The position numbers and the translations under genes are program-made. Positions 17,499 to 38,517 of a DNA stretch of 64,000 nucleotides are shown in pieces. The stretch covers positions 4,685 to 68,684 of IMG/VR virus record IMGVR_UViG_2767802354_000003. One strand, written 5' to 3'. The notes beneath the pieces were generated by a model that saw only the letters and a list, made by a program, of their open reading frames with translations, did not search any database and was not told the DNA's origin. The number at the start of each line of letters is the position of its first letter. Within the stretch, counting starts at the first letter, position 1. This DNA comes from a virus (Duplodnaviria > Caudoviricetes).

Positions 17499-19211
17499 CT
17501 AGATGCCGACTCCACTGTCATAGATGCTGGCCTCCTGCTCGGCCTGCTTGCCAGGCATTGCGCGGCCGATGGCCATGATCAGTGCTACGGCTCCGTCAAT
17601 CTTGTTGTCGTTGCCTTGCTTGATGGGGCGCACGATGTCGTCGTTGCCGACCAGGTGTTTGCCGATCACATTGCCCATGCACCAGGTCATCAGCGGGTTG
17701 CCGTCGTGATGAAAGCGCCCGGACATGATGGCCGCCTCGAGCTCCTTCATCGGGTCGCTCATGTTGGTGTAGTTCTGCACGATGGTGATCGGAAGCAAGC
17801 CTTCATCGTCGAGCTGGTGGGCCAGGTTGGTGGCGCCGTGCGGATCCATGGGCGATGCTTCAACAGGATTTAACCTTGCGGCTTCCTTGGCTTCTTCCAG
17901 AATCTCGCGGTAGTCAATCTCGGCACCGTCGGTGGTCAGCAGATGACCTGTGTTGACCCACTTCTGCAAGCGCTCGGCCATCCGCCGGTTGTCGCTGTTG
18001 TTGACCGTGTCCTCTGGCACCCAGAAGCGCGGAGCGATGCTGTAGTAGTGCCGCTTTCCATCGATGTCGCGCCAGAACAGCCGGGCCATGCTGTTCATGT
18101 CCAGCTTGCGAGCCAGGTCGAACGACAAGACCACCGACTGGCCTTCGAAATCAGCCAGATTCAGTGTGTCGTCTTCACAAGACTCCCACTGAGTCATGTT
18201 GAAGTAACCAGTTTTGGCGGTTACCCAGAGACCCAGGTGCTTGGTTTTGAAGGTATTCGTGAAGCGCGCCTGCTGGATGGCTCTTCGCTGCTGACTCTCC
18301 AAGTACTCTTGATAGACTGACACACCGATATTGGGGTTGGCCTTGGCTAGCACCTTTGGATCCGTCCAGTCATCCTCTGGATCAACCGTCCAGATCCAGC
18401 CAAACAGCTCGTCGTTAGGCACCGTACCGTCGAGCATTTCCACAACTTCGCGCCGCTTGTCGTAGCACGGACCTTCGATGTTGTAGCCAGCCGTGGTGAT
18501 GATGAACATCAGAGGCTGTTTGCGCGCGCCCATGCCAGTGAGCATGGTGGTGTAGAGCGCATCGCTGTCGTGCTCGTGGTACTCGTCAACGATGGAGCAC
18601 GAAGGACTGGCACCGTCACCGGGGTTGCCGATGATGGGCTCAAAGCGGCTGCCATCGCCTGGCTTGTTCAAATTGGAGGCATTGACCTCGATGCCGGCAG
18701 CTTCCAGCAGCATGGGAGAGCGCATCGCCATGAGACGCGCTGGCCGAAACACCTCCCATGCCTGCTTTTCTGTAGTGGCCCCGGAGTAAATCTCGGCGCC
18801 AAACTCGTTGTCGGCGGCAAACATGGCCAGACCCACGCCGGCTGCAATGACGCTCTTGCCGTTCTTGCGATTAACCTCCCAGTAGCTTTCACGAAAGCGG
18901 CGAAGACCATCCTTCTTGCGCTTCCATCCAAAGGTGCACGCCAGACCGAACTTCTGCCACGGCTCAAGGGTGATCAACTGGCGCTTGAAGCCCCATTCGC
19001 CCTTGGTGTGCGGCAGCAGCTCAATCAGAGCAATCTTCTTCTGCGCCTCCTTCGCATCAAACTCATAGGGGTACGCTTTGCTTTTGCTGGCCAGCAGATC
19101 ATCCAGATGACGCTGGCAGGCCTGCCGGACATATCGACACGCCGGAATCTTGCCGGCAACAATGGCCTTAGCGAACTTGTTGGCTGCATCCACCGCCGGA
19201 TATTTAGCCAT
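17499..19211 (-). CDS. terL: Terminase large subunit
   Basis: VNRKNGKS Walker [10 protein letters not shown] Walker [12 protein letters not shown] nuclease motif. Confidence 0.96.
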
Positions 19212-19686
19212 TGATGACCCCTGCAAACGGGTTGTCGCTCTGCTTCTGTTTACCTGTGCCCATCATTCGCTGTCGACTGGACGGGTCCAGCCCCAGCATT
19301 CCGCCATAGCTGGCCATCATGGCCGTCGCCTCTTTGAGGGCCGTCGCGGCGGGGTTCTTGATCACGCCTCCCATGGCCCCAGAGACCGTCACTCCGTTCT
19401 GGGCGATATCCGCCTGGGCCATCCGAAACTGGTCATAAGCGGAGCAGTACACCTCAAGGTTCTGAATATCTGTCGCCGCCAAAATGCGCTCTTTGCACAA
19501 CTGCGGCGCCACGGTTTCCCAGAGCATCCGGCCGTTATCCCCCATCCAATCCGGGCAATCGATATTCAGAACCAGCTCGAAGTCTGGTTCAGATTTATTG
19601 AGAGCTCGCTTGCCTGGATTACCAGCCAATAGCTTCTTTGCCGTAGGTTTGGGGCGACGGCCAGAGCGCCCAGCAGCACCTGCCAT
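19204..19686 (-). CDS. terS: Terminase small subunit, P27 family
   Basis: GRRPKPT...[14 protein letters not shown] and LGLDPSSR motifs. Confidence 0.93.
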
Positions 19687-19689
19687 CGG

Positions 19690-19830
19690 GCCTCCAGTTA
19701 AATTTCATATTTCGCGGGCGTAAAAATGTGACGAACCGGTCGGTCTAGAGCGCGAGGGCACCCTGGTTTCGACCCTCCCCCCTCCCCGCCCAGAGCCACC
19801 CAAGCTGCACGATGCGTGCCCACATGCGAA
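19690..19830 (-). other. Probable cos (packaging) region
   Basis: Intergenic G-rich GGGGAGGGGGGAGGG tract between HNH and terS, where HK97-like phages carry cos; cut site not determinable. Confidence 0.45.
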
Positions 19831-23069: not shown

Positions 23070-23611
23070 TGCACGCCCTCCTGCTGCCTGCGTGTGCTCA
23101 GGCCCAAGGCTTCTTTGGCATCCTTCAACGCGCGATAGCTCACGGTCTTGTCGCCAGCCTCCGAGCGGGCCAGGATCTTCCGCGCCCAGTCCTTGCCATC
23201 ACCATGGGCCACGATGCGCACCTCCAGGCGTTGAAACTTGGGCGCGGGCAGCGCCAGCAGGCCGGCCTCTTCCGCATAGGTCTTGCGGGGCGTAGCCGCT
23301 TTGCACAGGGCCTCAAACTGCGGCAGGCTGGGCGGGAACTCGGGGTGGTGGTCGGCAATGCGATCGGCTGCAGCCTCAATCACCTCCGGCGCGTATTTGC
23401 GCAGCGAAGCCCCCCAGACCTTGAGCGCAGCCAGCATGCCGATGTCCTGCCCGTCATTGTCCAAAGCTCCAGAGCCGAACTTGCTCAGGAAAGCGGTACC
23501 GTAGGAGCCCTGCATCAGCAGGAACAGCTTTGCCACGCCGGCACTCACGGCCTGAGACTCTCCGCGACGGGGCGAAGCCGCCGCATGGGCCAGTTGTCCA
23601 ATGGATTTCAT
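23066..23611 (-). CDS. Replication protein P-like (helicase loader position)
   Basis: Follows initiator; FPPSLPQFEALC motif. Confidence 0.65.
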   Translation of the reverse strand: MKSIGQLAHAAASPRRGESQAVSAGVAKLFLLMQGSYGTAFLSKFGSGALDNDGQDIGMLAALKVWGASLRKYAPEVIEAAADRIADHHPEFPPSLPQFEALCKAATPRKTYAEEAGLLALPAPKFQRLEVRIVAHGDGKDWARKILARSEAGDKTVSYRALKDAKEALGLSTRRQQEGVH

Positions 23612-24462
23612 TGCAGACCTCCGAGAATGGCAGCCATGGCGCCAGCGTGCTTGCCACCTGCTGCGGCTGCAGGTGCCATGGATGGACGGCGGGCCGCGGG
23701 CATTTCGGTGGATCGACGGATCCAGTTGCGCCAGGTCGCCCCCCAGTCGGCCTTGCGCCCGTCCTTGCCAGCCTTGGCGCGCCAGTGATCGGCAAACATC
23801 GCGGCCTGGCGGCGCACCTCTTCCTCGGTCAGGCCGGCATGTTCGGCAATGGCCCAGTCACCCCAGCTCTTGGGCAGCTTCCAGTCTTCGGGCAGGCGTG
23901 TTCCTGTCGCTGTCGCAGTCTTGCCCCTTCCCTTGCTGGCTTCTGGCTGAGCCGAAGGCGAAGTGTCACGGTCAGCATCACCTACAGCCTTTGAATAGTT
24001 AACTGTCTCTTCTTTATCTGTATCTATATCTGTATCTGTACGCGTGACATCCGTACCCGTCACGCGTGACTCGCCAGTGACCTCATCGTGACCACCCTCT
24101 TCTCCCTCTGAAACAGCGTCTTTTTTGCGCTGGCGCTGGCGGCGTTTACGCTCTGCTGCGGTGTTGTCGGTGTCGCTGCGCATCTGCAAGGTGGCCCACT
24201 TGGAAGGCTGCAGGGTGGCCTGTTCGATCAGCCCAACTTCTGCCAGGCGGCGGGCCACCTCTTCCAGGCTGCGCACATCCAGACCCAGCTTCACGGCGAC
24301 CTTGCGCATCAGCAGCGCAGGTGCATCGCCCTTGTCCAGCAGCCCCTCGCCCTTGAGGCACAGCAAGGCCACAAAGTGCCAGCGATCCTCAAAGGCCAGC
24401 AGCTTCAGCTTGTCGTCGTCGACCATCCGCGTATAGGTACGGAACCATGGGAGCTTGCTCAT
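23608..24462 (-). CDS. Replication initiator O-like
   Basis: LPWFRTY N-terminus, AERKRRQRQR, C-terminal FADHW...DWGATWRNWIRR. Confidence 0.85.
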   Translation of the reverse strand: MSKLPWFRTYTRMVDDDKLKLLAFEDRWHFVALLCLKGEGLLDKGDAPALLMRKVAVKLGLDVRSLEEVARRLAEVGLIEQATLQPSKWATLQMRSDTDNTAAERKRRQRQRKKDAVSEGEEGGHDEVTGESRVTGTDVTRTDTDIDTDKEETVNYSKAVGDADRDTSPSAQPEASKGRGKTATATGTRLPEDWKLPKSWGDWAIAEHAGLTEEEVRRQAAMFADHWRAKAGKDGRKADWGATWRNWIRRSTEMPAARRPSMAPAAAAGGKHAGAMAAILGGLQ

Positions 24463-24935
24463 CGTCCAAACCTCGCGTTATCTGCGGCGTGCTCTGCATC
24501 CAGGGATTGCTGAACAGCAAGCAACGCAGCCACGGCCTCGGCGATTTCACGCTGCACCACGCGCTTGTCGTTGTCGCTGACGTTGTTGTCTGCCTTCGCC
24601 ATCGTGGTGGCCATCAGAACGTCGGCGCATTCACGCACCGCGATGGCTGCAGACTTGGAAAGGCATTTTTCAGCGCCTGGCTGCGCTTCGGGCAGCGCCA
24701 GCATGCCGGCGTTGAATGAGAAGACCGTGCCCAAGGCATGCGCTTCTGCGCTACCAGCCTCACGGCACATAGACGCAATCTCATCAGCGTCAGCGAGACC
24801 CATCTTGTGGCTTGGGGACACGCCGCTCAGCTCCTTGCGCAGAACTTCGTCGGATTTGTTCAGGCGGGCTGCAAGAGCAGCGCGGCCGCCTGGGTAGTTG
24901 GCGACCATGCGTCGCAGTGCATCAAGAGCATTCAT
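24459..24935 (-). CDS. Phage regulatory CII-like protein
   Basis: YPGGRAALAARLNKS..VLRKEL HTH; position after cro. Confidence 0.75.
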   Translation of the reverse strand: MNALDALRRMVANYPGGRAALAARLNKSDEVLRKELSGVSPSHKMGLADADEIASMCREAGSAEAHALGTVFSFNAGMLALPEAQPGAEKCLSKSAAIAVRECADVLMATTMAKADNNVSDNDKRVVQREIAEAVAALLAVQQSLDAEHAADNARFGR

Positions 24936-26259: not shown

Positions 26260-26511
26260 TCACTCCACCTCCTTGGTTGAGGTGGATGGCTGCGCCAGCT
26301 CAGGCCAAATCTGGGTGTACTGGTCGGGGAACAGATCCCGCCTAGTCACAGTAGTGAGCTTTTCAAGGCTTGCAGCGCAAGCAGCAGGGATCGGGCGCCG
26401 TCCGCTGATCCACTGGGATATCTCGGAAGGGGATTTGCCTAGGGCTCGCGCCAGAGCAGTCGGGCCACCTGCCTCGGTGCTGGCTCGCTTTGCGAATGCT
26501 GCATGTTTCAT
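26260..26511 (-). CDS. cro: Cro-like HTH repressor
   Basis: GGPTALARALGKSPSEISQWISGRRPIP HTH, divergent from cI. Confidence 0.88.
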   Translation of the reverse strand: MKHAAFAKRASTEAGGPTALARALGKSPSEISQWISGRRPIPAACAASLEKLTTVTRRDLFPDQYTQIWPELAQPSTSTKEVE

Positions 26512-26520
26512 TCATAAAAT

Positions 26521-26581
26521 TTAGCATAGCTAATCATAAAAATCAAGCCACGCTAAATTCATTAATTATTAGCATCGCTAA
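26521..26581. promoter_or_regulatory. OR operators and pR
   Basis: TTAGCATAGCTAA (26521-26533), CAAGCCACGCTAA (26544-26556), TTAGCATCGCTAA (26569-26581); - strand TTGATT-N17-TAAATT just upstream of cro. Confidence 0.75.
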
Positions 26582-26582
26582 C

Positions 26583-27341
26583 ATGAAAGAATGGACTACT
26601 GAGGAAGAGGCTGCAAACCTGCGTCGCCTTCTTACCGGCGTTAAGAACAAGGCTCAGTTCGCCAAGGACAATGGAGTTCCAGGCGGTGCGTCCATGCTTT
26701 CCCAACACCAAAGTGGGCATCGCCCCATCAGCTTGGATGCGGCCAAAGCGTATGCAAAAGGGCTGGGTATCGGAATCGGAGAGATTGCACCTCGCTTTGC
26801 AAAGCTGGTGTCTGACGTCTCGGAGCTTGCTCAGCCAGCGCCTTACCCAAGGGGTCACGAGATAGACATGTCAGCGTACAGTGCTGTTCCGATGTATCAC
26901 GCACCTGACGCTGTAATTGTTCCTCTGCTCTCTAACTGCGGCAGCATGGGCCCCGGTTCTGAGTTGCTGGAGTCAGATGTCATTGTGGGTGACTTGGCCC
27001 TATCCCCACACTGGATCAATCAGCAGATCAGGCCCCAGAACCCGCAAGAGCTGCGCTTCATACACGCATATGGCGACAGCATGGCCCCAACATTCACAGA
27101 TGGCGATGTCCTGCTCGTTGACACAGGGCTTAGTGCACGTGACCCCAGTTCACGCGAAGGCGTCTACGTTTTGCGGGCGAATGATCGAACTTTCATCAAG
27201 CGTGTCACCCCCACCTTTGACGGCAAGCTGCAGGTGACCAGCGACAACCCCAGCGCCAAGACTGTACAAACACTGAATGGCGATCATCAAGTGGATGTGG
27301 TTGGTCGGGTGGTGTGGGCCTGGAATGGGAAAAGGCTGTAA
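26583..27341 (+). CDS. cI: CI-like repressor (HTH + S24 peptidase)
   Basis: N-terminal HTH; GDSMAPT..DGDVLLVD, FIKRV and VVGRVV S24 motifs. Confidence 0.93.
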   Translation: MKEWTTEEEAANLRRLLTGVKNKAQFAKDNGVPGGASMLSQHQSGHRPISLDAAKAYAKGLGIGIGEIAPRFAKLVSDVSELAQPAPYPRGHEIDMSAYSAVPMYHAPDAVIVPLLSNCGSMGPGSELLESDVIVGDLALSPHWINQQIRPQNPQELRFIHAYGDSMAPTFTDGDVLLVDTGLSARDPSSREGVYVLRANDRTFIKRVTPTFDGKLQVTSDNPSAKTVQTLNGDHQVDVVGRVVWAWNGKRL

Positions 27342-28857: not shown

Positions 28858-28920
28858 GTAGCAGCGCTTCATTTTATATTTAGCAAAGCTATTGCTTATT
28901 TAGTTTAGCAAAGCTACATT
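28858..28920 (+). promoter_or_regulatory. OL operators and pL promoter
   Basis: TTAGCAAAGCTA at 28880 and 28905 plus a degenerate copy at 28858; TTGCTT(28892)-N17-TACATT(28915). Confidence 0.75.
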
Positions 28921-29404: not shown

Positions 29405-29532
29405 CTGCGGCTTCAGCTGCGACAACATGGTGGGGCGTCTATTTTTTCAAGAGCACCGTTTAAGGTCATTTAAAAGCGTACTGTGGGACAAGGCAGTCAA
29501 TCTTGACCAGCCACCTTAGACCGGAGGTCTAT

Positions 29533-29694
29533 TTGTCAGGTAACCCCATTCCCATCTCTACCCCATCTTTTTGGAACACCTTGAAGCTGATGTTTTTTAT
29601 CACTGATGGGCTACCAGCTCCACAGCAACAAGGCAAGCCTCGTGTCCCTAAAGAAAAGAATGAGGAAGAGCAGCAGCAGCAACGCAAACAGTAG
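29533..29694 (+). CDS. Microprotein A1 (53 aa, TTG start)
   Basis: Start 1 nt after the SD hairpin; ungapped similarity to A2. Confidence 0.6.
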   Translation: MSGNPIPISTPSFWNTLKLMFFITDGLPAPQQQGKPRVPKEKNEEEQQQQRKQ

Positions 29695-29749
29695 CGAAAG
29701 AGAGCTACTTTTTAACTCAGGGTTGCGCTACCGCCCTAGCAAGCACACC

Positions 29750-29770
29750 AGCCACCTCCGGGTGGCTTTT
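29750..29770 (+). terminator. GCCACC/GGTGGC-family intrinsic terminator (also 30080, 30954, 31531, 32426)
   Basis: Same 6-7 bp stem with variable loop and T tract, five times in 2.7 kb. Confidence 0.8.
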
Positions 29771-29855
29771 GCTTGCGCCGTTTAAGGTCATTTAAAAGCG
29801 TAATGTGGACGCATGCGAGTCACTTTTGCTTCGCAGCTTTAGACCGGAGGTCTAT

Positions 29856-30035
29856 ATGTTTCCACTCCTTGTGTACCAAAGATATGTCGCGTTTTGGCAT
29901 GACATGTGGTCGATCATCCTTGAGCCCATCTCTGAGCTCCCGCCAAGCCCTTCAAGCTTCGATCAAGAGCCTTCAGCAAAGCCAGAAACGCCACCATCCA
30001 CGCTCGGCCCAGATGCAGCCAACGACAAGCCCTGA
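29856..30035 (+). CDS. Microprotein B1 (59 aa)
   Basis: ATG after SD hairpin; 25/59 identical to B2. Confidence 0.7.
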   Translation: MFPLLVYQRYVAFWHDMWSIILEPISELPPSPSSFDQEPSAKPETPPSTLGPDAANDKP

Positions 30036-30242
30036 TTGACACGTTCACGCCCCAGACTAAGCAGAAAGCCATGATCCTCAGCCACCTTTTCAGGTGGCTT
30101 TTCTTTGAGGAAACTGCTGCGGTTTAAGGCCTATTCGAGCATTGCTGACATGGACTTTGAGACCGCCGTTTAAGGTCATTAAAAAGAGTACCGTGGACTC
30201 ATGTGGCCTATCTTGGACCGCTGCCATAGACCGGAGGTCTAT

Positions 30243-30461
30243 ATGTCTTTCATCGACAAAACTATCTTCAACATCCGCTCCCGGCTTCCCGCCGTGAAAC
30301 AGGAAGTCGATTCCCGGAGCGTGGCGGATGACGACCGAATCTTTCACACGCCATTTCAAACGGATGCACAGCTGCAGGAGGAATCACCTGAGCAGATGCT
30401 GCGCAAAAAAACGAACCGCCTTTTGCTGCAAGCGGTCCTCAACAAAATCTCTGCCGCTTGA
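30243..30461 (+). CDS. Microprotein C (72 aa)
   Basis: ATG after SD hairpin. Confidence 0.65.
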   Translation: MSFIDKTIFNIRSRLPAVKQEVDSRSVADDDRIFHTPFQTDAQLQEESPEQMLRKKTNRLLLQAVLNKISAA

Positions 30462-30485
30462 GCAAGCTTCTGACCGGAGGTCTAT

Positions 30486-30665
30486 ATGTTTTCACTACTT
30501 GGCTACAAACGTCAGTCCGAGTTCTGGCGTGATATGTGGGTGATGCTCCTCGAGCCGATTTCAAAGATTCAACCCATCGAACCCAGTCTCGATTCACCAC
30601 TCGCACCGACGCCAAAAGCCCCACAGCCCAGCTCCGAAACACCTGCTGTCAACGACAAGGCGTGA
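30486..30665 (+). CDS. Microprotein B2 (59 aa; not in ORF track)
   Basis: MFSLLGYKRQSEFWRDMWVMLLEPIS...NDKA; paralog of B1. Confidence 0.7.
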   Translation: MFSLLGYKRQSEFWRDMWVMLLEPISKIQPIEPSLDSPLAPTPKAPQPSSETPAVNDKA

Positions 30666-30724
30666 CAGCACCATACGGAGACGCAGCGAGCCCGTAGCTC
30701 GCGCGTGTCAGTCTGGAGGTCTAT

Positions 30725-30907
30725 ATGTCAGTAAGCCGCATCCCATCTTCATTCCTGAGGGTTTGGAGAACAGTCAGACGAGTCTTCGCCAGAGGCGAGC
30801 CACTCCCCAGTCCACCCAACATCGAACAGTGCGGACCTCCTGAAAAAGACAAGAGGAGGCAAGAGGAGAGGCAATCGCGCATGCGCCATAGCTATCGATA
30901 CTGGTAG
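30725..30907 (+). CDS. Microprotein A2 (60 aa)
   Basis: GGAGGTCTATATG start context; paralog of A1. Confidence 0.6.
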   Translation: MSVSRIPSSFLRVWRTVRRVFARGEPLPSPPNIEQCGPPEKDKRRQEERQSRMRHSYRYW

Positions 30908-31258
30908 CAAGAGTGTTCGACAGCTCCCACGATTACGTGGCTTCATTTTCAACAGCCACCTTCTAAGGTGGCTTTTTTGTGCCCGGAGATCTTGAGATGT
31001 GAGCATTCAGCCAACATGTGCCATACATGCGCCCTCTCCCGCAGGGCTATAGCGGGGCCATCAAGAAAGAGCGCGGCAATGAAAAACTGCAACGTGGGTG
31101 GAGTTGGGTAATCCGCTCTTTTTCTTGATGGTGCCGGGGGTCGGCTCCCCGGCTCTTACAAAGCAAGCCTGAAAGGGCCTGGCTGGAAAACTGCAAGAGG
31201 GTAATCGCACTGGCCACAGGTGCCCATCATGACCACCCCGGGAAAGTAGCGGGGGCTA

Positions 31259-31364
31259 TCTGGCGTGACTGCTCGAGCAAGTACGGCAACTCAGGAATGG
31301 GCCTGGGTTGGCGGCAGTCACGAGCACGGCGCATCCGCGTCGTGGCGACAGTGGTCACGCCAGA
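31259..31364 (+). ncRNA. Putative structured RNA, family X copy 1
   Basis: 15-bp closing stem with G-U pairs plus two internal hairpins; homologous to copies 2 and 3; strand inferred from G-U pairs and operon direction. Confidence 0.6.
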
Positions 31365-31570
31365 GGGTTTAACAACTTTTCTTAACGTAAATAAGCTTCA
31401 GATGTGGTTCGTCGCGGCGAGCGAATGCGACAAAAGCACTCATTGCGCAGCATCAGACGATAGGCTGTGAATTTATTTCAGTAACATCCGCCTTAGGCCC
31501 AGCTATTAGGACGTAGGTGGAGCCTCTTACGCCACCCACAAGGTGGCTTTTTTTGTCCTGAATTCAGGGC

Positions 31571-31682
31571 CATCCGGCGTTACTGCTTGAACAGGCATGC
31601 CCCCAAGAATTTGCCTGGGTCGCCGTCTATTGGGAGCGCGGCGCGGCTTCCGCGTCGTGAGCGACAGCGGTCACGCCAGATG
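31571..31682 (+). ncRNA. Putative structured RNA, family X copy 2
   Basis: CATCCGGCGTTACTGCT/AGCGGTCACGCCAGATG closing stem; 10-bp inner hairpin. Confidence 0.55.
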
Positions 31683-31763
31683 ACGTAGAGCCCGTTTATG
31701 AGCCCACACACATCTTGATTCCGTCACTCTCTTTGGGCAAAATTTGCGTCACGTACCTGTTTT

Positions 31764-31876
31764 GCCGGGCCTGGGGTCACAGACTCCTTTCACTTCCGCA
31801 ACTTGCCCAGGCATGACCAAATAGGTCGCCGGCTTTTTATTCGTGCCCGCAGCAACTGCTTGCGGGCTTTTCTTTT
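31764..31876 (+). ncRNA. Putative sRNA, family Z copy 1
   Basis: GCCGG/CCGGC, GCCTGGG/CCCAGGC, GACC/GGTC three-stem junction plus terminator. Confidence 0.6.
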
Positions 31877-32050
31877 GCCGCCGGCAGTTCAAGCTAAAAA
31901 ACAGGATACACATAGTGGAAAACAGGCCCCCTAGATGCGCACCACCACAGCCGCATGAGTAGACATGGGGCTATCCAGTTTGGTGTAAGACGAGCTCCTA
32001 TTGATCACCCAAAAAGCATCGTGCAGAATTCGACGCCATCTACCTGTTAC

Positions 32051-32163
32051 GCCGGGCCTGGGGTTAACTCCTCCCTCCCTTTCTGACCTCTTCCCCAGGC
32101 ATGGCCCGAAAGGGTCACCGGCTCTTTACTCAAGCCCGCAGCTACCGCTCGCGGGCTTTTTTT
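32051..32163 (+). ncRNA. Putative sRNA, family Z copy 2 (CU-rich anti-SD loop)
   Basis: Same junction; loop CTCCTCCCTCCCTTTCTGACCTCTT; GAAA tetraloop; terminator. Confidence 0.65.
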
Positions 32164-32179
32164 GCCCACAGGAGACCAC

Positions 32180-32236
32180 ATGCACTCAAGTCCAATCACC
32201 ACCCGCACGACAAAACTGCTACTTGCCAAGCAATAG
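32180..32236 (+). pseudogene. Truncated paralog of the 45-aa TM peptide (TGG to TAG)
   Basis: MHSSPITTRTTKLLLAKQ* then ALTGLGL, aligning to MHSTQTTAYNTKLLLAAQWALTGLGL. Confidence 0.6.
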
Positions 32237-32467
32237 GCGCTCACAGGCTTAGGCCTCGCATGTACCTTCCCCCGCAGGGCTATAGCTAGACCACATCAAA
32301 TAGTAAATATGAATTAATTCTTGAACACCAATAGAAAATGTTGACAACATCAGATGTTAGTGAAAGTATTCACCCTAAGTAAGTCTTTGAATGAGCGCTG
32401 CTCGTGTGTGAGTGAAGCCTCTTTAAGCCACCCTCCGCAGGGTGGCTTTTTTTGCACCAAAGTCAGT

Positions 32468-32580
32468 GCCATCCGGTGTGACCACTCGAGCAGGTACGGC
32501 AGTTCAGGAATAGGCCTGGGCGGGCGGCAATTAGGAACGCGGCACTTTGCGTCGTGGCGACAGTGGTCACACCAGATGGC
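32468..32580 (+). ncRNA. Putative structured RNA, family X copy 3
   Basis: 18/19-bp closing stem with compensatory changes relative to copy 1. Confidence 0.6.
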
Positions 32581-32589
32581 AAGTCAGGT

Positions 32590-32850
32590 TTACTTCTTCC
32601 CACCACCGACAAGGTAGACGTTGCCCTCGGCCACGTTATTGAGAAGCTCGCGATACGCATTCACCAAGTGATCGCGGCCAAGCCTGAACTCGGGATCCGT
32701 TCTATCAGGTCCGTCCTGATGCTTAGCATCCAGCTGTGCAGCGCGCAGCTCTCTCGCCGCTTGATGGGCAGTCTCGCGCGGTAGCGCCTTGACGACTGCC
32801 GTCAAGATCATCGACAGCGCAGCAAATGCGCCAGATTCCTCCTGGGTCAT
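32590..32850 (-). CDS. Hypothetical protein (86 aa), antisense insert
   Basis: AGACTGGAGGT RBS context; helical protein. Confidence 0.6.
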   Translation of the reverse strand: MTQEESGAFAALSMILTAVVKALPRETAHQAARELRAAQLDAKHQDGPDRTDPEFRLGRDHLVNAYRELLNNVAEGNVYLVGGGKK

Positions 32851-32887
32851 GAGGCACCTCCAGTCTGATGACCCATTCTAGTTTCCA

Positions 32888-32997
32888 GCCGGGCCTGGGG
32901 TTTATCTCCTCCCTCCCTCTCTGACCCATTCCCCAGGCAGACCCGAAAGGTCACCGGCTCTTTATTCAAGCCCGCAGCAAACGCTCGCGGGCTTTTT
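32888..32997 (+). ncRNA. Putative sRNA, family Z copy 3
   Basis: Same junction; loop ATCTCCTCCCTCCCTCTCTGACC; terminator. Confidence 0.65.
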
Positions 32998-33019
32998 CGT
33001 TACCCACACAGGAGATTCC

Positions 33020-33157
33020 ATGCATTCGACTCAAACCACCGCCTACAACACAAAGCTGCTGCTCGCGGCGCAATGGGCTCTTACCGGCCTCGGCCTGTTC
33101 TGCCTGGTCGGCGCAGCCGTGGTGATCGCACTCACGCCAGAACCCTGGCCCCTCTGA
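33020..33157 (+). CDS. Small single-TM peptide (45 aa; not in ORF track)
   Basis: CAGGAG RBS; WALTGLGLFCLVGAAVVIAL hydrophobic segment. Confidence 0.65.
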   Translation: MHSTQTTAYNTKLLLAAQWALTGLGLFCLVGAAVVIALTPEPWPL

Positions 33158-33190
33158 GCATTCAACCTTGAAAACTGACAGGAGAGACTC

Positions 33191-33388
33191 ATGCTGAAGA
33201 CGATTGTCGACTCCCTGCTGGTCATCGTTGGCGCAATGCTTCTCGCAGCCTGGCTGTCCGCGCCTGATGCCCAAGCCGATGAACCCAAAACCTTCACCCA
33301 AAGCCTGCGCGATGAGTTCGCCTGCCCGGGCATGCATGCCGAGTGGCTGGACGAGAAGACCGTGCAATGCCTGAAAGAGCAACCGTAG
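33191..33388 (+). CDS. Small membrane-anchored/exported protein (CPGM motif)
   Basis: N-terminal hydrophobic helix; CPGM..W.....V.C.KE shared with 33614-33883. Confidence 0.7.
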   Translation: MLKTIVDSLLVIVGAMLLAAWLSAPDAQADEPKTFTQSLRDEFACPGMHAEWLDEKTVQCLKEQP

Positions 33389-33613
33389 ATTGGCCATGAC
33401 ATGACCTTTTTGCAGGAAGTCTTTTCGCTCTTCTTGCACATAAGGATAGAGAATAGGCATTGCAAAATTCATTGCAATAGTTTGTCTTCAGACAGAGCTT
33501 TTGCCTTTCGCTGCGCAGACGTCCATTGGAGGTCATCAACATGCGAGCTCTAAGGCGCCAAAGGGTGCAATAGCGGCCGTTGCGTTCGCATCCATCAACA
33601 TAGACTGAAGCGT

Positions 33614-33883
33614 ATGGCAAAGCCACCAATCCAGCTTGAGTACCTACCCAAGAGGCGAAGCAGCAGGAACCACCTCCTCTGGAGGGCAGGATTCTTCTTG
33701 AGCGCCTCGGCGGTTCTGCTGACTTGCCTGGTCATGGAAGGCTGTAAGCCCGAATCGGGAAAGAAGTTTGAGGAAACAACTGCTGCATTCAAAAATTCAG
33801 CGCTTAGCGCCTGGCATTGCCCAGGAATGACAGCCATTTGGGTCAGCGAAAATATTGTGAAGTGCGTCAAAGAAGAGCGTTGA
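33614..33883 (+). CDS. Paralogous small membrane protein (CPGM motif)
   Basis: Hydrophobic segment; HCPGMTAIWVSENIVKCVKE. Confidence 0.65.
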   Translation: MAKPPIQLEYLPKRRSSRNHLLWRAGFFLSASAVLLTCLVMEGCKPESGKKFEETTAAFKNSALSAWHCPGMTAIWVSENIVKCVKEER

Positions 33884-33952
33884 GCTCGAAAATTTAAAAA
33901 TGCAAAAAGCCCACACCTTTACAGATGTGGGCTTTTTTACGCCAAGTAAAAA

Positions 33953-34204
33953 TTACTTGCGTGTGTTGGCTAGAGATACAGAGATAACTCGACCACCCAA
34001 TGACTGATCATTCAGGGAGTCGATCGCTGTCTTTGCTTGGGCAGCAGTGCCCATTTCAACAAAGCCGAAGCCGCGCGATTGACCTGTATTGCGATCCATT
34101 ATGACTTCAGAGGAAATAACATCCCCACAGCTTGAAAAATGTGATTTCAGTGTTTCGCGATCGATGCCATAGCCAAGATTGGAGACGTAGAGATTGCTTT
34201 GCAT
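33953..34204 (-). CDS. RRM (RNP-1) RNA-binding protein, copy 1
   Basis: RNP2 LYVSNL and RNP1 RGFGFVEM. Confidence 0.95.
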   Translation of the reverse strand: MQSNLYVSNLGYGIDRETLKSHFSSCGDVISSEVIMDRNTGQSRGFGFVEMGTAAQAKTAIDSLNDQSLGGRVISVSLANTRK

Positions 34205-35130: not shown

Positions 35131-35359
35131 AGAGCCTCCACAGAATTGCCTTTGCCCGCCATTGAGCGGGCTTTTTTATGAGTATCACCAGCATGACAAA
35201 CACCACCACTGACAAGCGTTGCGGAAGCTGCGGCGCCCCTCTTCCTAAAGACTTCAAAGAAGAGCAGGGTCAACCACTTCCTTGCGGCCACTAACAGCCA
35301 CAACTTCCCCAACATCAGAGCCCGCCAATCAGCGGGCTTTTTCTATTTCTGGAGTCTCA

Positions 35360-36550
35360 ATGTTCAAGAGCATGACCATTTACCGCCTTGCCAAGAGCTG
35401 GCAAAGCGATCTGCAGGCGCTGAAAAATTCCCTGCAAAAGACGGTGTTTGAAGAGTGCGGCGCGACCCAAGAGCGCTCCGTGGGCTGGGTTCCGCCGCGC
35501 GGCGAGCAGCACGGCCCGCTGGTCGAGTCCGTGGCCGGCCAGTGGGTCATGCGCTTCATGACCGAGGCCAAGGTGCTGCCGGCCAGCGTGCTCAACCGTA
35601 AGGTCAACGAAAAGGCCGAGCACATCGAAAAGACCGAAGGCCGCAAGCCCGGCAAGAAGGAAAAGCGCGAGCTCAAGGACGAGGCCAAGCTGGACCTGTT
35701 ACCCATGGCCTTCACCAAGCAGGGCAGCATGTGGGTCTGGATCGATCCGCAGGCGCGCACCCTGGTGCTCGATACCAGCGCCCAGGGCCGCGCCGACGAG
35801 ATGGTGACGCTGCTGGTCGAAGGCCTGCCCGGCTTTGCCCTGGCCCTGCTGGATACCCAGACCAGCCCACAGGCCGCCATGGCGCACTGGCTGATGACAC
35901 AAGAGCCGCCCGCAGGCTTCACTGCCGACCGCGAGACAGAGCTGAAAGCCGCCGACGAGTCCAAGGCCGTGGTGCGCTACGCACGCCACCCGCTGGATAT
36001 TGATGAAGTCCGCCAGCACATCGAGCACGGCAAGCTACCCACCAAACTGGCCATGACCTGGGACGACCGAGTGAGCTTTGTACTGACCGAAGGCCTGCAG
36101 ATCAAGAACATCACGCTGCTGGATGCTGTCATGGATGGCAACAGCAAGGACGATGGCGGCTTCGATACCGATGTGGCCATTGCCACCGGCGAGCTGTCGC
36201 GCCTGATTCCCGACCTGATCGAAGCATTGGGCGGCGAAGGCCGCACCCGCCTGGGCGACCTGCCCGCCTCGCTTCAGAACGCGCCTGCTGCGAAAACTCT
36301 GCCAGCAAGCACTGCCAGGACCGCGCCCGCCCCGCACTGCGAAGCTGCTGGCGACGGTCGGGACCCGCTCTATGCCGAGGCCGTTGAACTGGTGCGCAAG
36401 GACCAGAAGCCAAGCGTCTCCTATGTGCAGCGCAAGCTGTTGATTGGCTACAACCGGGCCGCCGCCTTGCTGGAGCGCATGCAGGCCGAGGGACTGGTGT
36501 CGCGCATGGATGGCAGCGGCAAGCGCACGCTTTTGACGCCGCCCGCCTAG
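35360..36550 (+). CDS. rdgC: RdgC recombination-associated protein with C-terminal FtsK-gamma-like winged helix
   Basis: SVGWVPPRG, KVLPASV, GKLPTKLAMTW RdgC motifs; C-terminal DPLYAEAV...SVSYVQRKLLIGYNRAAALLERMQAEGLVS. Confidence 0.9.
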   Translation: MFKSMTIYRLAKSWQSDLQALKNSLQKTVFEECGATQERSVGWVPPRGEQHGPLVESVAGQWVMRFMTEAKVLPASVLNRKVNEKAEHIEKTEGRKPGKKEKRELKDEAKLDLLPMAFTKQGSMWVWIDPQARTLVLDTSAQGRADEMVTLLVEGLPGFALALLDTQTSPQAAMAHWLMTQEPPAGFTADRETELKAADESKAVVRYARHPLDIDEVRQHIEHGKLPTKLAMTWDDRVSFVLTEGLQIKNITLLDAVMDGNSKDDGGFDTDVAIATGELSRLIPDLIEALGGEGRTRLGDLPASLQNAPAAKTLPASTARTAPAPHCEAAGDGRDPLYAEAVELVRKDQKPSVSYVQRKLLIGYNRAAALLERMQAEGLVSRMDGSGKRTLLTPPA

Positions 36551-38265: not shown

Positions 38266-38517
38266 TTACTTGCGTGGACGGGCCAGGGCCACTCCCACAG
38301 CGCGACCGCCCAGCGGTTGGTCGTTCAGCGACTGGATAGCTTTCTGGGCCTGCTCAGGAGTGGCCATTTCAACAAAGCCGAAGCCGCGTGAGCGGCCGGT
38401 TTCGCGGTCGGAAATGACGTCTGCGGAGATCACTTCACCGCAACCGCTGAAATGTGCGCGCAGGGCTTCGCCGTCGATGGAATAGCCGAGATTGGTGACA
38501 TAGAGATTGTTTTGCAT
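38266..38517 (-). CDS. RRM (RNP-1) RNA-binding protein, copy 2
   Basis: LYVTNL and RGFGFVEM; 56/83 identical to copy 1. Confidence 0.95.
   Translation of the reverse strand: MQNNLYVTNLGYSIDGEALRAHFSGCGEVISADVISDRETGRSRGFGFVEMATPEQAQKAIQSLNDQPLGGRAVGVALARPRK

What the first reader, a model, noticed from the sequence alone, without database searches (positions are those of the whole stretch)
30960..33020. Two-kilobase non-coding RNA array with interlocking repeat families
Seen: apart from one inserted gene, the tract lacks convincing ORFs. It alternates family X (3 copies), family Z (3 copies), a further CCATC...GATGG long hairpin (31058-31131), a duplicated CATG..CCCGCAGGGCTATAGC segment (about 31030 and 32260) and terminators, separated by unrelated AT-richer spacers. 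The heptamer GCCTGGG occurs in all six X and Z copies (31301, 31613, 32514 and the Z 5' stems), so Z's CCCAGGC strand could alternatively pair with X. Known: P1/P7 C4 and P4 CI RNAs are processed small RNAs that pair with repeated target sites on their own transcript to control termination and translation. Inference: a multi-copy antisense/attenuation switchboard processed from the pL transcript; I recognise no described family with this arrangement.
Basis: partly seen in the sequence, partly recalled or inferred. Interest (0 to 1): 0.8.

Follow-up and report, generated by a model that had tools for sequence, protein, structure and literature searches.

The report
Repeated structured-RNA modules in prophage early operon
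The tract is a triplicated, partly decayed array of two undescribed structured RNA elements of Comamonas prophages: a small RNA with a ribosome-binding-site-like decoy loop (Z) and a three-way-junction RNA of unknown role (X) that normally sit together in front of two small membrane-protein genes.

Summary
The window is a lambdoid Comamonas provirus; 30960-33020 lies in its leftward early (pL) operon and holds exactly three X and three Z copies, all on the + strand. Both are genuine RNA structures with covariation: X 94.9% paired, 11 pairs with double changes; Z 97.2% paired, 13 of 18. Neither matches any Rfam family. In about 25 related proviruses and many Comamonas genomes the canonical single-copy module is: small hairpin P0, X, spacer, Z (ending in an intrinsic terminator), then a conserved 45-aa membrane protein gene and a 65-aa secreted protein gene. 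The window is an amplified, decayed version of it: one truncated copy of the 45-aa gene, one inserted opposite-strand gene, one X-slot variant hairpin. Z occurs in 57 of 77 Comamonas species genomes (up to 11 copies), some stand-alone with their own promoter-like boxes. Its most conserved part is a C/U-rich anti-Shine-Dalgarno loop. Best reading: Z is a terminator-ended base-pairing sRNA of the anti-SD kind. X is a cis-acting upstream element (processing/insulation, or possibly antitermination) whose role is unresolved.

The parts
30954..30978 (+). Intrinsic terminator of the 'AGCCACC' type that closes the preceding small-ORF cassette; one of five of this type at 29750-32450
   Evidence: direct-repeat family D10
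30985..31002 (+). Leader with a Shine-Dalgarno box (30985-30988) and a start codon directly followed by a stop (30997-31002)
   Evidence: Read. The same box recurs upstream of X in other loci with TGA, TAA or TAG as the stop, or as a 2-4 codon mini-ORF
31038..31136 (+). P0-type small hairpin (31038-31057) followed by the long CCATC...GATGG hairpin 'X0'. It occupies the slot that X occupies after the same leader in L146, L160, L186 and L250
31230..31375 (+). X1: P0 hairpin (31236-31254) plus a three-way-junction RNA closed by an 18-19 bp stem
   Evidence: 143.6 bits with model R2; fold z-score -5.9
31531..31554 (+). Intrinsic terminator 12 nt upstream of X2
31544..31691 (+). X2, with its P0 hairpin at 31557-31568
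   Evidence: 110.8 bits with R2
31715..31743 (+). Promoter-like boxes in front of Z1: TTGATT, 17 nt, CAAAAT
   Evidence: The boxes are conserved while the 17-nt spacer varies, in two otherwise unrelated spacer families
31740..31877 (+). Z1, the beta loop variant (CUCCU and CUUCC motifs); terminator 31845-31871
   Evidence: 132 bits with R1
32001..32029 (+). Promoter-like boxes in front of Z2: TTGATC, 17 nt, CAGAAT
32027..32166 (+). Z2, with the C/U-rich anti-SD loop; terminator 32134-32163
   Evidence: 147 bits with R1
32180..32236 (+). Truncated copy of the 45-aa gene: 18 codons, then a stop
   Evidence: Repeat family D2; tblastn 68% identity over 28 aa
32259..32293 (+). Remnant of the leader/P0 segment, with no X behind it
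   Evidence: Repeat family D8; no significant fold
32341..32454 (+). Candidate independent small RNA unit: TTGACA (32341-32346), 17 nt, extended -10 (32361-32369), about 80 nt of RNA, terminator 32425-32454
   Evidence: Alignment of 7 loci: the boxes are conserved and the spacer varies
32443..32587 (+). X3, with its P0 hairpin at 32454-32469
   Evidence: 147.3 bits with R2; 95% complementary arms (pair I2)
32590..32850 (-). Inserted 86-aa gene between X3 and Z3; no Pfam or PHROG family
   Evidence: The same X / gene / Z arrangement occurs in 8 provirus loci and several genomes
32864..33002 (+). Z3; terminator 32970-32997, 22 nt before the start codon of the 45-aa gene
   Evidence: 144.6 bits with R1
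33020..33388 (+). Cargo of the module: the 45-aa single-pass membrane protein gene (33020-33157) and the 65-aa signal-peptide protein gene with two Cys (33191-33388)
   Evidence: Conserved as proteins with synonymous variation; they follow Z in most loci

Best explanation
The tract is an amplified and partly decayed array of a bipartite RNA module native to Comamonas prophages. In its simple form the module reads: P0 hairpin, X, spacer, Z, then the 45-aa and 65-aa genes. Z is a roughly 125-140 nt RNA. It has a short 5' tail and an outer helix that encloses two hairpins: one with a ~30-nt C/U-rich loop (core CUCCUCCCUCCC) and one small. An A/U-rich linker and an intrinsic terminator follow. I read Z as a terminator-ended, base-pairing small RNA of the anti-Shine-Dalgarno kind. 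It is made from its own weak sigma-70-type promoter where one is present, and otherwise from read-through transcripts coming from pL. Its loop would occlude ribosome-binding sites. The downstream membrane-protein genes have no promoter of their own, so they would be expressed only by read-through of the Z terminator, for example under early-operon antitermination. X is a cis-acting RNA element on the same transcript. It is a small variable hairpin stacked on a long, sequence-conserved stem that closes a three-way junction. My preferred guess is that the ~20-bp stem is a double-strand processing and insulation site (RNase III type). Cleavage there would separate Z from whatever is transcribed upstream, leaving the upstream RNA ending in the P0 hairpin. 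Shown here: the structures, their covariation, strand, copy number, synteny and taxonomic spread. Inferred only: the promoters, the anti-SD action, and above all the role of X.
For: Structure: Z is 97.2% paired, and 13 of 18 pairs show compensatory double changes; 0 of 500 shuffles reach this, and slid controls give 26-50% paired. X is 94.9% paired, 11 of 37 pairs have double changes, 0 of 500 shuffles reach this, and slid controls give 29-41%. Strand and RNA level: X has 154 G.U against 35 C.A cells, and all terminators face +. Functional core of Z: the C/U-rich loop is the most conserved stretch across 35 divergent copies, while the stems around it vary freely. sRNA rather than pure leader: chromosomal copies stand alone, without X, behind a TTTACA / 17 nt / TAAGAA(T) box. 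Spacer families a and b keep TTGATY / 17 nt / CA(A/G)AAT while the spacer between the boxes varies. Z copies also occur in tandem. Spread: Z is in 57 of 77 Comamonas genomes with up to 11 copies, and X is in 17 of 77, almost always 7-90 nt upstream of a Z. Cotranscription of X and Z: four loci have only 7-9 nt between them. Kind: the nearest, still insignificant, Rfam models are ar14 and the Betaproteobacteria toxic sRNA. Both are C/U-rich-loop sRNAs that target ribosome-binding sites (PMC4615179, PMC5688073). Role of X: the lower stem sequence and the P0 hairpin are what survive in the divergent chromosomal copy and in the X0 variant, while the interior is replaceable.
Against: There are no expression data, so no transcript ends, processing sites or targets are known. 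Complementarity of the Z loop to the ribosome-binding site of the 45-aa gene is only the generic 5-7 nt and does not covary. A scan of the window gave no convincing specific target. The tight synteny of Z with the two genes fits a cis leader equally well. Nothing tested here speaks specifically for RNase III at X. X is often preceded by a terminator only 12 nt upstream, so it would be transcribed only on read-through. The promoter boxes are weak (4 of 6 in each hexamer), and the consensus scanner did not call them.
Confidence: 0.5

Rival explanations
1. X-Z is purely a cis-acting leader of the two membrane-protein genes. The Z terminator is the control point, and X is a processive antiterminator RNA, working like put of HK022 or EAR. 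X would modify RNA polymerase so that it reads through the Z terminator and later terminators of the early operon.
For: X is nearly always followed within 100-250 nt by an intrinsic terminator and then by same-strand genes, even in loci without a canonical Z. It consists of two adjacent stem-loops (P0 plus the long stem), and the lower stem is conserved in sequence, as expected for a protein or polymerase contact. The operon is full of terminators, and no N-like protein was recognised. The variable 7-90 nt spacing to the terminator argues against simple alternative pairing, and so for a processive mode if X affects termination at all.
Against: There is no X in the pR operon, whereas put acts in both early operons (PMC9378689). 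X itself lies behind terminators it could not overcome. X is about 140 nt with a three-way junction, against about 70 nt and two stems for put. Z exists widely without X and with its own promoter-like boxes. A chromosomal copy lies outside any evident prophage.
Confidence: 0.2
2. One reading: X and Z are processed antisense partners, like C4 of P1/P7 or CI of P4. They pair through the shared GCCUGGG / CCCAGGC strands and so switch termination or translation along the pL transcript.
For: The heptamer is in all six copies, and 9 of the 27 window matches lie in the tract. X and Z are neighbours on one strand.
Against: Substitutions in these helices are compensated within X (L136, L160, L011) and within Z (at least ten stem variants), not across them. 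Z occurs without X in most genomes that have it. Loop-loop complementarity is inconsistent. There is no Rfam match to C4-type families.
Confidence: 0.06
3. A type I toxin-antitoxin-like cassette: the 45-aa hydrophobic peptide is a membrane toxin, and Z is the RNA that keeps its translation off by covering its ribosome-binding site.
For: A small single-pass hydrophobic protein sits directly behind an RNA whose loop is complementary to its Shine-Dalgarno box. Copy number is high in prophages. One copy is truncated.
Against: Complementarity is only 5-7 nt and generic, whereas type I antitoxins have long specific duplexes. The peptide is always paired with a secreted 65-aa protein. Z and the gene lie on the same strand in series. 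Many Z copies have no such gene within 1.5 kb.
Confidence: 0.1
4. The repeats matter only as DNA. They would be module-boundary 'linker' sequences that promote recombination between prophages, or protein-binding inverted repeats, with no RNA function.
For: Modules are clearly shuffled at shared boundaries such as the CCATC junction: X0 against X after the same leader, several spacer families, and gene insertions.
Against: The excess of G.U over C.A pairs is strand-specific. Compensatory changes preserve the helices. An unpaired loop is the best-conserved part of Z. Orientation relative to the terminators is uniform.
Confidence: 0.05

Closest known systems
Cuckoo / alpha-r14 / CcsR family sRNAs of Alphaproteobacteria (Rfam RF02344 and relatives; PMC4615179)
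   Same: Multi-copy sRNAs, often clustered. Their only strongly conserved sequence is a C/U-rich anti-Shine-Dalgarno motif displayed in a hairpin loop, the stems covary freely, and the RNA ends in an intrinsic terminator. The ar14 model is the best Rfam match to Z.
   Different: That match is only 18.5 bits against a gathering score of 58.8. Z has one large loop inside an outer helix plus a second small hairpin, not 2-4 equal hairpins. Its motif is CUCCUCCCUCCC rather than exactly CCUCCUCCC. Z is betaproteobacterial, largely prophage-borne, and coupled to X and to two small genes.
Betaproteobacteria toxic small RNA / Burkholderia double-hairpin sRNAs (RF02278; PMC5688073)
   Same: A betaproteobacterial sRNA family with 3-5 copies per genome and C/U-rich unpaired stretches complementary to ribosome-binding sites. 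Overexpression slows growth.
   Different: The match is 18.1 bits against a gathering score of 50 and covers only the terminator half of Z. Those RNAs are 57-92 nt long, are not reported from prophages, and have no X-like partner.
HK022 put RNAs (PMC9378689)
   Same: A cis-acting structured RNA of two adjacent stem-loops in a lambdoid early operon, upstream of terminators; this is the comparison for X.
   Different: put is about 70 nt, lies just downstream of both pL and pR, and occurs once per operon. X is about 140 nt with a three-way junction, is absent from pR, occurs three times here, and lies behind terminators. No sequence similarity was tested, because no put model is at hand.
P1/P7 C4 and P4 CI immunity RNAs
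   Same: Phage-encoded small structured RNAs in an immunity/early region, with repeated related sequences on one transcript.
   Different: No Rfam match. No conserved complementarity between the repeats. Immunity here is by a CI-type S24 repressor.
RNase III processing hairpins between early genes of T7 and in the lambda N leader / sib
   Same: Repeated long imperfect hairpins placed between units of a phage early polycistronic transcript. The stems are about two helical turns, as in the closing stem of X. This comparison rests on my own knowledge.
   Different: Those sites are simple hairpins with an internal loop. X carries a three-way junction and a flanking hairpin. Cleavage of X is untested.

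Membership tests
C4 antisense RNA (P1/P7) and related Rfam families | Match to the curated covariance model at its gathering score | tested here: not met
   No family reached its gathering score in the whole window. No C4-type hit appeared even at E up to 10 in 30000-34000.
C4 antisense RNA (P1/P7) and related Rfam families | The small RNA pairs with repeated complementary target sites on its own transcript | tested here: not met
   The only shared X/Z complementarity (GCCUGGG) is compensated within each hairpin, not between X and Z. Loop-loop pairing does not covary.
Betaproteobacteria toxic small RNA (RF02278) | Match to the covariance model (gathering score 50 bits) | tested here: not met
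   18.1 bits, E 0.11 on a 151-nt search; only the terminator half aligns.
Betaproteobacteria toxic small RNA (RF02278) | C/U-rich unpaired stretch complementary to ribosome-binding sites | tested here: met
   The Z loop core is conserved across 35 divergent copies. This shows resemblance in kind, not membership.
Cuckoo / alpha-r14 (RF02344) | Two to four adjacent hairpins, each with CCUCCUCCC in the loop (PMC4615179) | tested here: not met
   Z has a single motif-bearing loop, and its motif matches 8 of the 9 letters. The model scores 18.5 bits against a gathering score of 58.8.
HK022 put antiterminator RNA | About 70 nt, two stem-loops, present downstream of both pL and pR (PMC9378689) | tested here: not met
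   X is about 140 nt, made of P0 plus a three-way junction. None is on the pR side.
HK022 put antiterminator RNA | Promotes terminator read-through without protein factors | not testable with these tools
   Needs a transcription assay.
Terminator-ended (Hfq-type) base-pairing sRNA | Own promoter, intrinsic terminator with a U tail preceded by an A/U-rich stretch, conserved single-stranded seed | tested here: inconclusive
   The terminator, the A/U-rich linker and the conserved loop are present in all copies. Promoter-like boxes are conserved in several contexts but are weak and absent from others. Hfq binding and transcript ends are untested.
Type I toxin-antitoxin | Extended specific complementarity between the antitoxin RNA and the toxin mRNA | tested here: not met
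   Only 5-7 nt of generic anti-SD pairing. The apparent match between the X arm and the 3' end of the 45-aa gene is not conserved at synonymous sites.

The most novel reading that the evidence does not exclude
X is a new class of processive antitermination RNA. It would be a put-like, polymerase-modifying element of Comamonas lambdoid phages that lets early transcription pass the Z terminator and later terminators. Re-loading copies along the operon would explain why it is repeated.
Probability: 0.15. Interest if true: 0.85.

Novelty: new variant of a known kind. Interest (0 to 1): 0.55.

Why it matters
Two well-supported RNA structures that are absent from Rfam turn out to be common in a whole genus. 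Z is in about three quarters of the sampled Comamonas species, with up to 11 copies per genome, mostly carried by prophages. If Z acts as an anti-Shine-Dalgarno sRNA, prophages are adding many copies of a global translation regulator to their hosts. Z also has chromosomal relatives, which gives a clean system for asking how phage sRNAs enter host regulons. X is a conserved three-way-junction RNA with no known relative. It always sits ahead of a terminator in an early operon, which makes it a direct candidate for either a processing signal or a new RNA antiterminator. Both ideas can be tested with simple reporter and Northern experiments.

Tried and rejected
1. Rfam, whole window at gathering scores and the tract at E up to 10: only chance-level hits.

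2. blastn of the tract against isolated phages and plasmids: nothing.

3. A genome contigs pattern scan with a Z stem pattern was too unspecific.

4. X 5' arm pairing with the 3' end of the 45-aa gene. The match is 13 of 14 nt in the window, about 0.001 expected by chance. It was rejected because that codon stretch varies freely at synonymous sites in 41 homologues.

5. Kissing interaction between the X P2 loop and the 3' part of the Z loop. It reaches 7-8 bp in some pairs but is absent in others, with no covariation.

6. Specific pairing of the Z loop with the ribosome-binding site of the 45-aa gene: generic only.

7. Duplex scan of the Z loops against the whole window: apart from the self-antisense hits, the best sites are G-rich stretches, and the one I examined (near 19756, - strand) is not at a start codon; no usable target came out.

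8. X as an invertible or protein-bound DNA repeat: rejected on the G.U against C.A asymmetry and the constant internal orientation.

9. X as the 3' structure of the opposite-strand 86-aa gene: the - strand scores far lower (28.9 against 147 bits), and X usually occurs without that gene.

10. Pfam and PHROG searches gave no function for the 45-aa, 65-aa and 86-aa proteins.

11. The earlier-findings index had nothing on this genome or sequence.
Full report
**Context.** The window is an IMG/VR provirus record. It has a lambdoid layout. The large terminase is at 17499-19226, a replication protein at 23608-24462 and a CII-like activator at 24459-24935, all on the - strand. A CI-type S24 repressor is at 26490-27341 on the + strand, and an RdgC-FtsK-gamma fusion is at 35282-36550 on the + strand. 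Two operator-like 12-mers sit at 28880 and 28905. The region to their right is therefore the leftward early (pL) operon, transcribed on the + strand. Between 28.4 and 35.3 kb there is no ORF over 100 aa that looks real. Terminator-like sites are over-represented, 23 against 9.7 +/- 3.4 expected. Protein cluster names place the host in Comamonas (C. testosteroni, C. thiooxydans).

**Observation.** Covariance models built here find exactly three X and three Z in the 64 kb, all on the + strand and all inside the tract.

**What the units are.** Pattern scans of viral contigs gave about 45 related loci. Mapping X, Z and the neighbouring small proteins on them shows a recurrent module. It reads: a small variable hairpin (P0), X, a 7-90 nt spacer, Z ending in an intrinsic terminator, about 20 nt holding a Shine-Dalgarno box, a 45-aa single-pass membrane protein gene, and a 65-aa signal-peptide protein gene. 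An 86-aa gene on the opposite strand lies between X and Z in eight loci.

The window is an expanded version of this module:
- X0 variant, then X1.
- X2, then Z1.
- Z2, then a truncated copy of the 45-aa gene.
- A P0 remnant.
- A promoter-plus-terminator unit.
- X3, the 86-aa gene, Z3, and then the intact 45-aa and 65-aa genes.

**Z.** Its fold is an outer helix enclosing two hairpins. One carries a ~30-nt C/U-rich loop and the other is small. An A/U-rich linker and a terminator follow. Model R1 finds Z in 57 of 77 genomes of the host genus, with up to 11 copies, and in 4 of 150 other genomes of the family. On 35 divergent copies the structure is 97.2% paired. Thirteen of its 18 pairs show compensatory double changes, no shuffle of 500 reaches this, and slid controls give 26-50% paired. 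At least ten different stem sequences occur, yet the loop core CUCCUCCCUCCC is the best-conserved stretch.

Three observations suggest that Z has its own promoters:
- Two unrelated spacer families upstream of Z keep TTGATY, 17 nt, CA(A/G)AAT, while the 17-nt spacer varies.
- Stand-alone chromosomal copies have TTTACA, 17 nt, TAAGAA(T).
- The predicted start falls about 14 nt before the outer helix, in a conserved CCAUC tail.

In four loci X abuts Z with only 7-9 nt between them, so there the two must be cotranscribed. Rfam has no match. The nearest models are ar14 (18.5 bits) and the Betaproteobacteria toxic sRNA (18.1 bits). Both are families whose C/U-rich loops pair with ribosome-binding sites (PMC4615179, PMC5688073).

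**X.** It folds as an 18-19 bp closing stem, a 2-bp extension, and a three-way junction with P2 (6-9 bp, loop usually AAUGGG) and a variable P3. P3 is missing in three copies and enlarged in two. On 35 copies the structure is 94.9% paired, and 11 pairs have double changes. No shuffle of 500 reaches this, and slid controls give 29-41%. There are 154 G.U against 35 C.A cells, which points to RNA on the + strand.

A small hairpin, P0, lies directly 5' of the closing stem in nearly all copies, with quite different sequences. X is in 17 of 77 Comamonas genomes and in none of 150 other family genomes sampled. It is almost always just upstream of a Z.

Where no canonical Z follows, X is followed by a structured spacer, a shorter element made of a C/U-rich stretch plus a terminator, and then ORFs. 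A chromosomal locus conserved at 84-92% identity in four species carries P0, a divergent X that keeps only the lower stem sequence, Z, and the two small genes. The 31058-31131 hairpin occupies the X slot behind the same leader. That leader carries a Shine-Dalgarno box and a start codon directly followed by a stop. The pattern is kept with TGA, TAA or TAG in different loci.

**Interpretation.** Z has the anatomy of a terminator-ended base-pairing sRNA with an anti-Shine-Dalgarno seed. Its independent promoters, stand-alone copies and loop conservation favour a trans-acting role. The tight synteny with the two small genes means it also acts as their transcriptional gate, since they have no promoter of their own.

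The role of X is unresolved. Its conserved lower stem with a replaceable interior, the flanking P0, and its position between transcription units make a double-strand processing and insulation site my first guess. A put-like processive antiterminator is the more exciting alternative. X always precedes a terminator and then genes. Against this reading, no copy lies in pR and X sits behind terminators itself.

Other pairings I considered were also rejected.

**Limits.** There are no expression data. E-values from the models are rough. Genome samples are one per species and partly incomplete. The genome-contig scan was wasted on too loose a pattern. A literature search found no description of these RNAs in Comamonas, but the library is not exhaustive.

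Noticed in passing
window 29450-30700: Upstream of the tract the pL operon carries three to four repeated mini-cassettes. Each has a 24-nt box (29457, 29779, 30167) and a hairpin that buries the Shine-Dalgarno box right before the start codon (29518, 29841, 30228, 30471; none expected by chance). Each then has a small ORF and an AGCCACC-type terminator. The ORFs at 29856-30035 and 30486-30665 are 43% identical paralogues. This looks like a translational-control hairpin repeated in front of each small early gene.
   Followed up: partly
window 33953-34204 (-) and 38269-38517 (-): Two copies of an 83-aa RRM-domain RNA-binding protein (RRM_1, E 1e-20) lie on the strand opposite to pL. Each sits in a duplicated ~1.4-kb block together with paralogues of a 72-aa and a 60-aa ORF. 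An RNA-binding protein encoded next to an sRNA array could be its partner; this was not tested.
   Followed up: partly
window 32341-32454: A conserved unit with an AT-rich upstream stretch, TTGACA, a variable 17-nt spacer, an extended -10, about 80 nt of RNA and a strong terminator. It is probably a further independent small RNA gene and is present in at least 7 related loci.
   Followed up: partly
window 30985-31002; also L210-L213, L146, L160, L245, L246: A Shine-Dalgarno box followed by a start codon and an immediate stop codon. The pattern is kept with all three stop codons across phage and chromosomal copies of the leader upstream of P0/X. It could be a ribosome-loading 'start-stop' element.
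   Followed up: partly
L199:2100-2370, L200:2100-2341, L196:556-800: In some Comamonas chromosomes a degenerate Z-like element directly follows a 32-aa hydrophobic ORF. This is a second association of the Z scaffold with a small membrane peptide.
   Followed up: no
window 33614-33883: An 89-aa predicted lipoprotein whose C-terminal ~30 residues (two Cys) are 43% identical to the C-terminus of the 65-aa protein. The module's cargo has been duplicated and diversified; a role in surface or exclusion functions is only a guess.
   Followed up: no
window 33904-33937: A 15-bp perfect-stem bidirectional terminator between the convergent lipoprotein and RRM genes. It produced the only sub-threshold Rfam hits of any size (Thr_leader, ohsC), which are chance matches to a terminator.
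   Followed up: no
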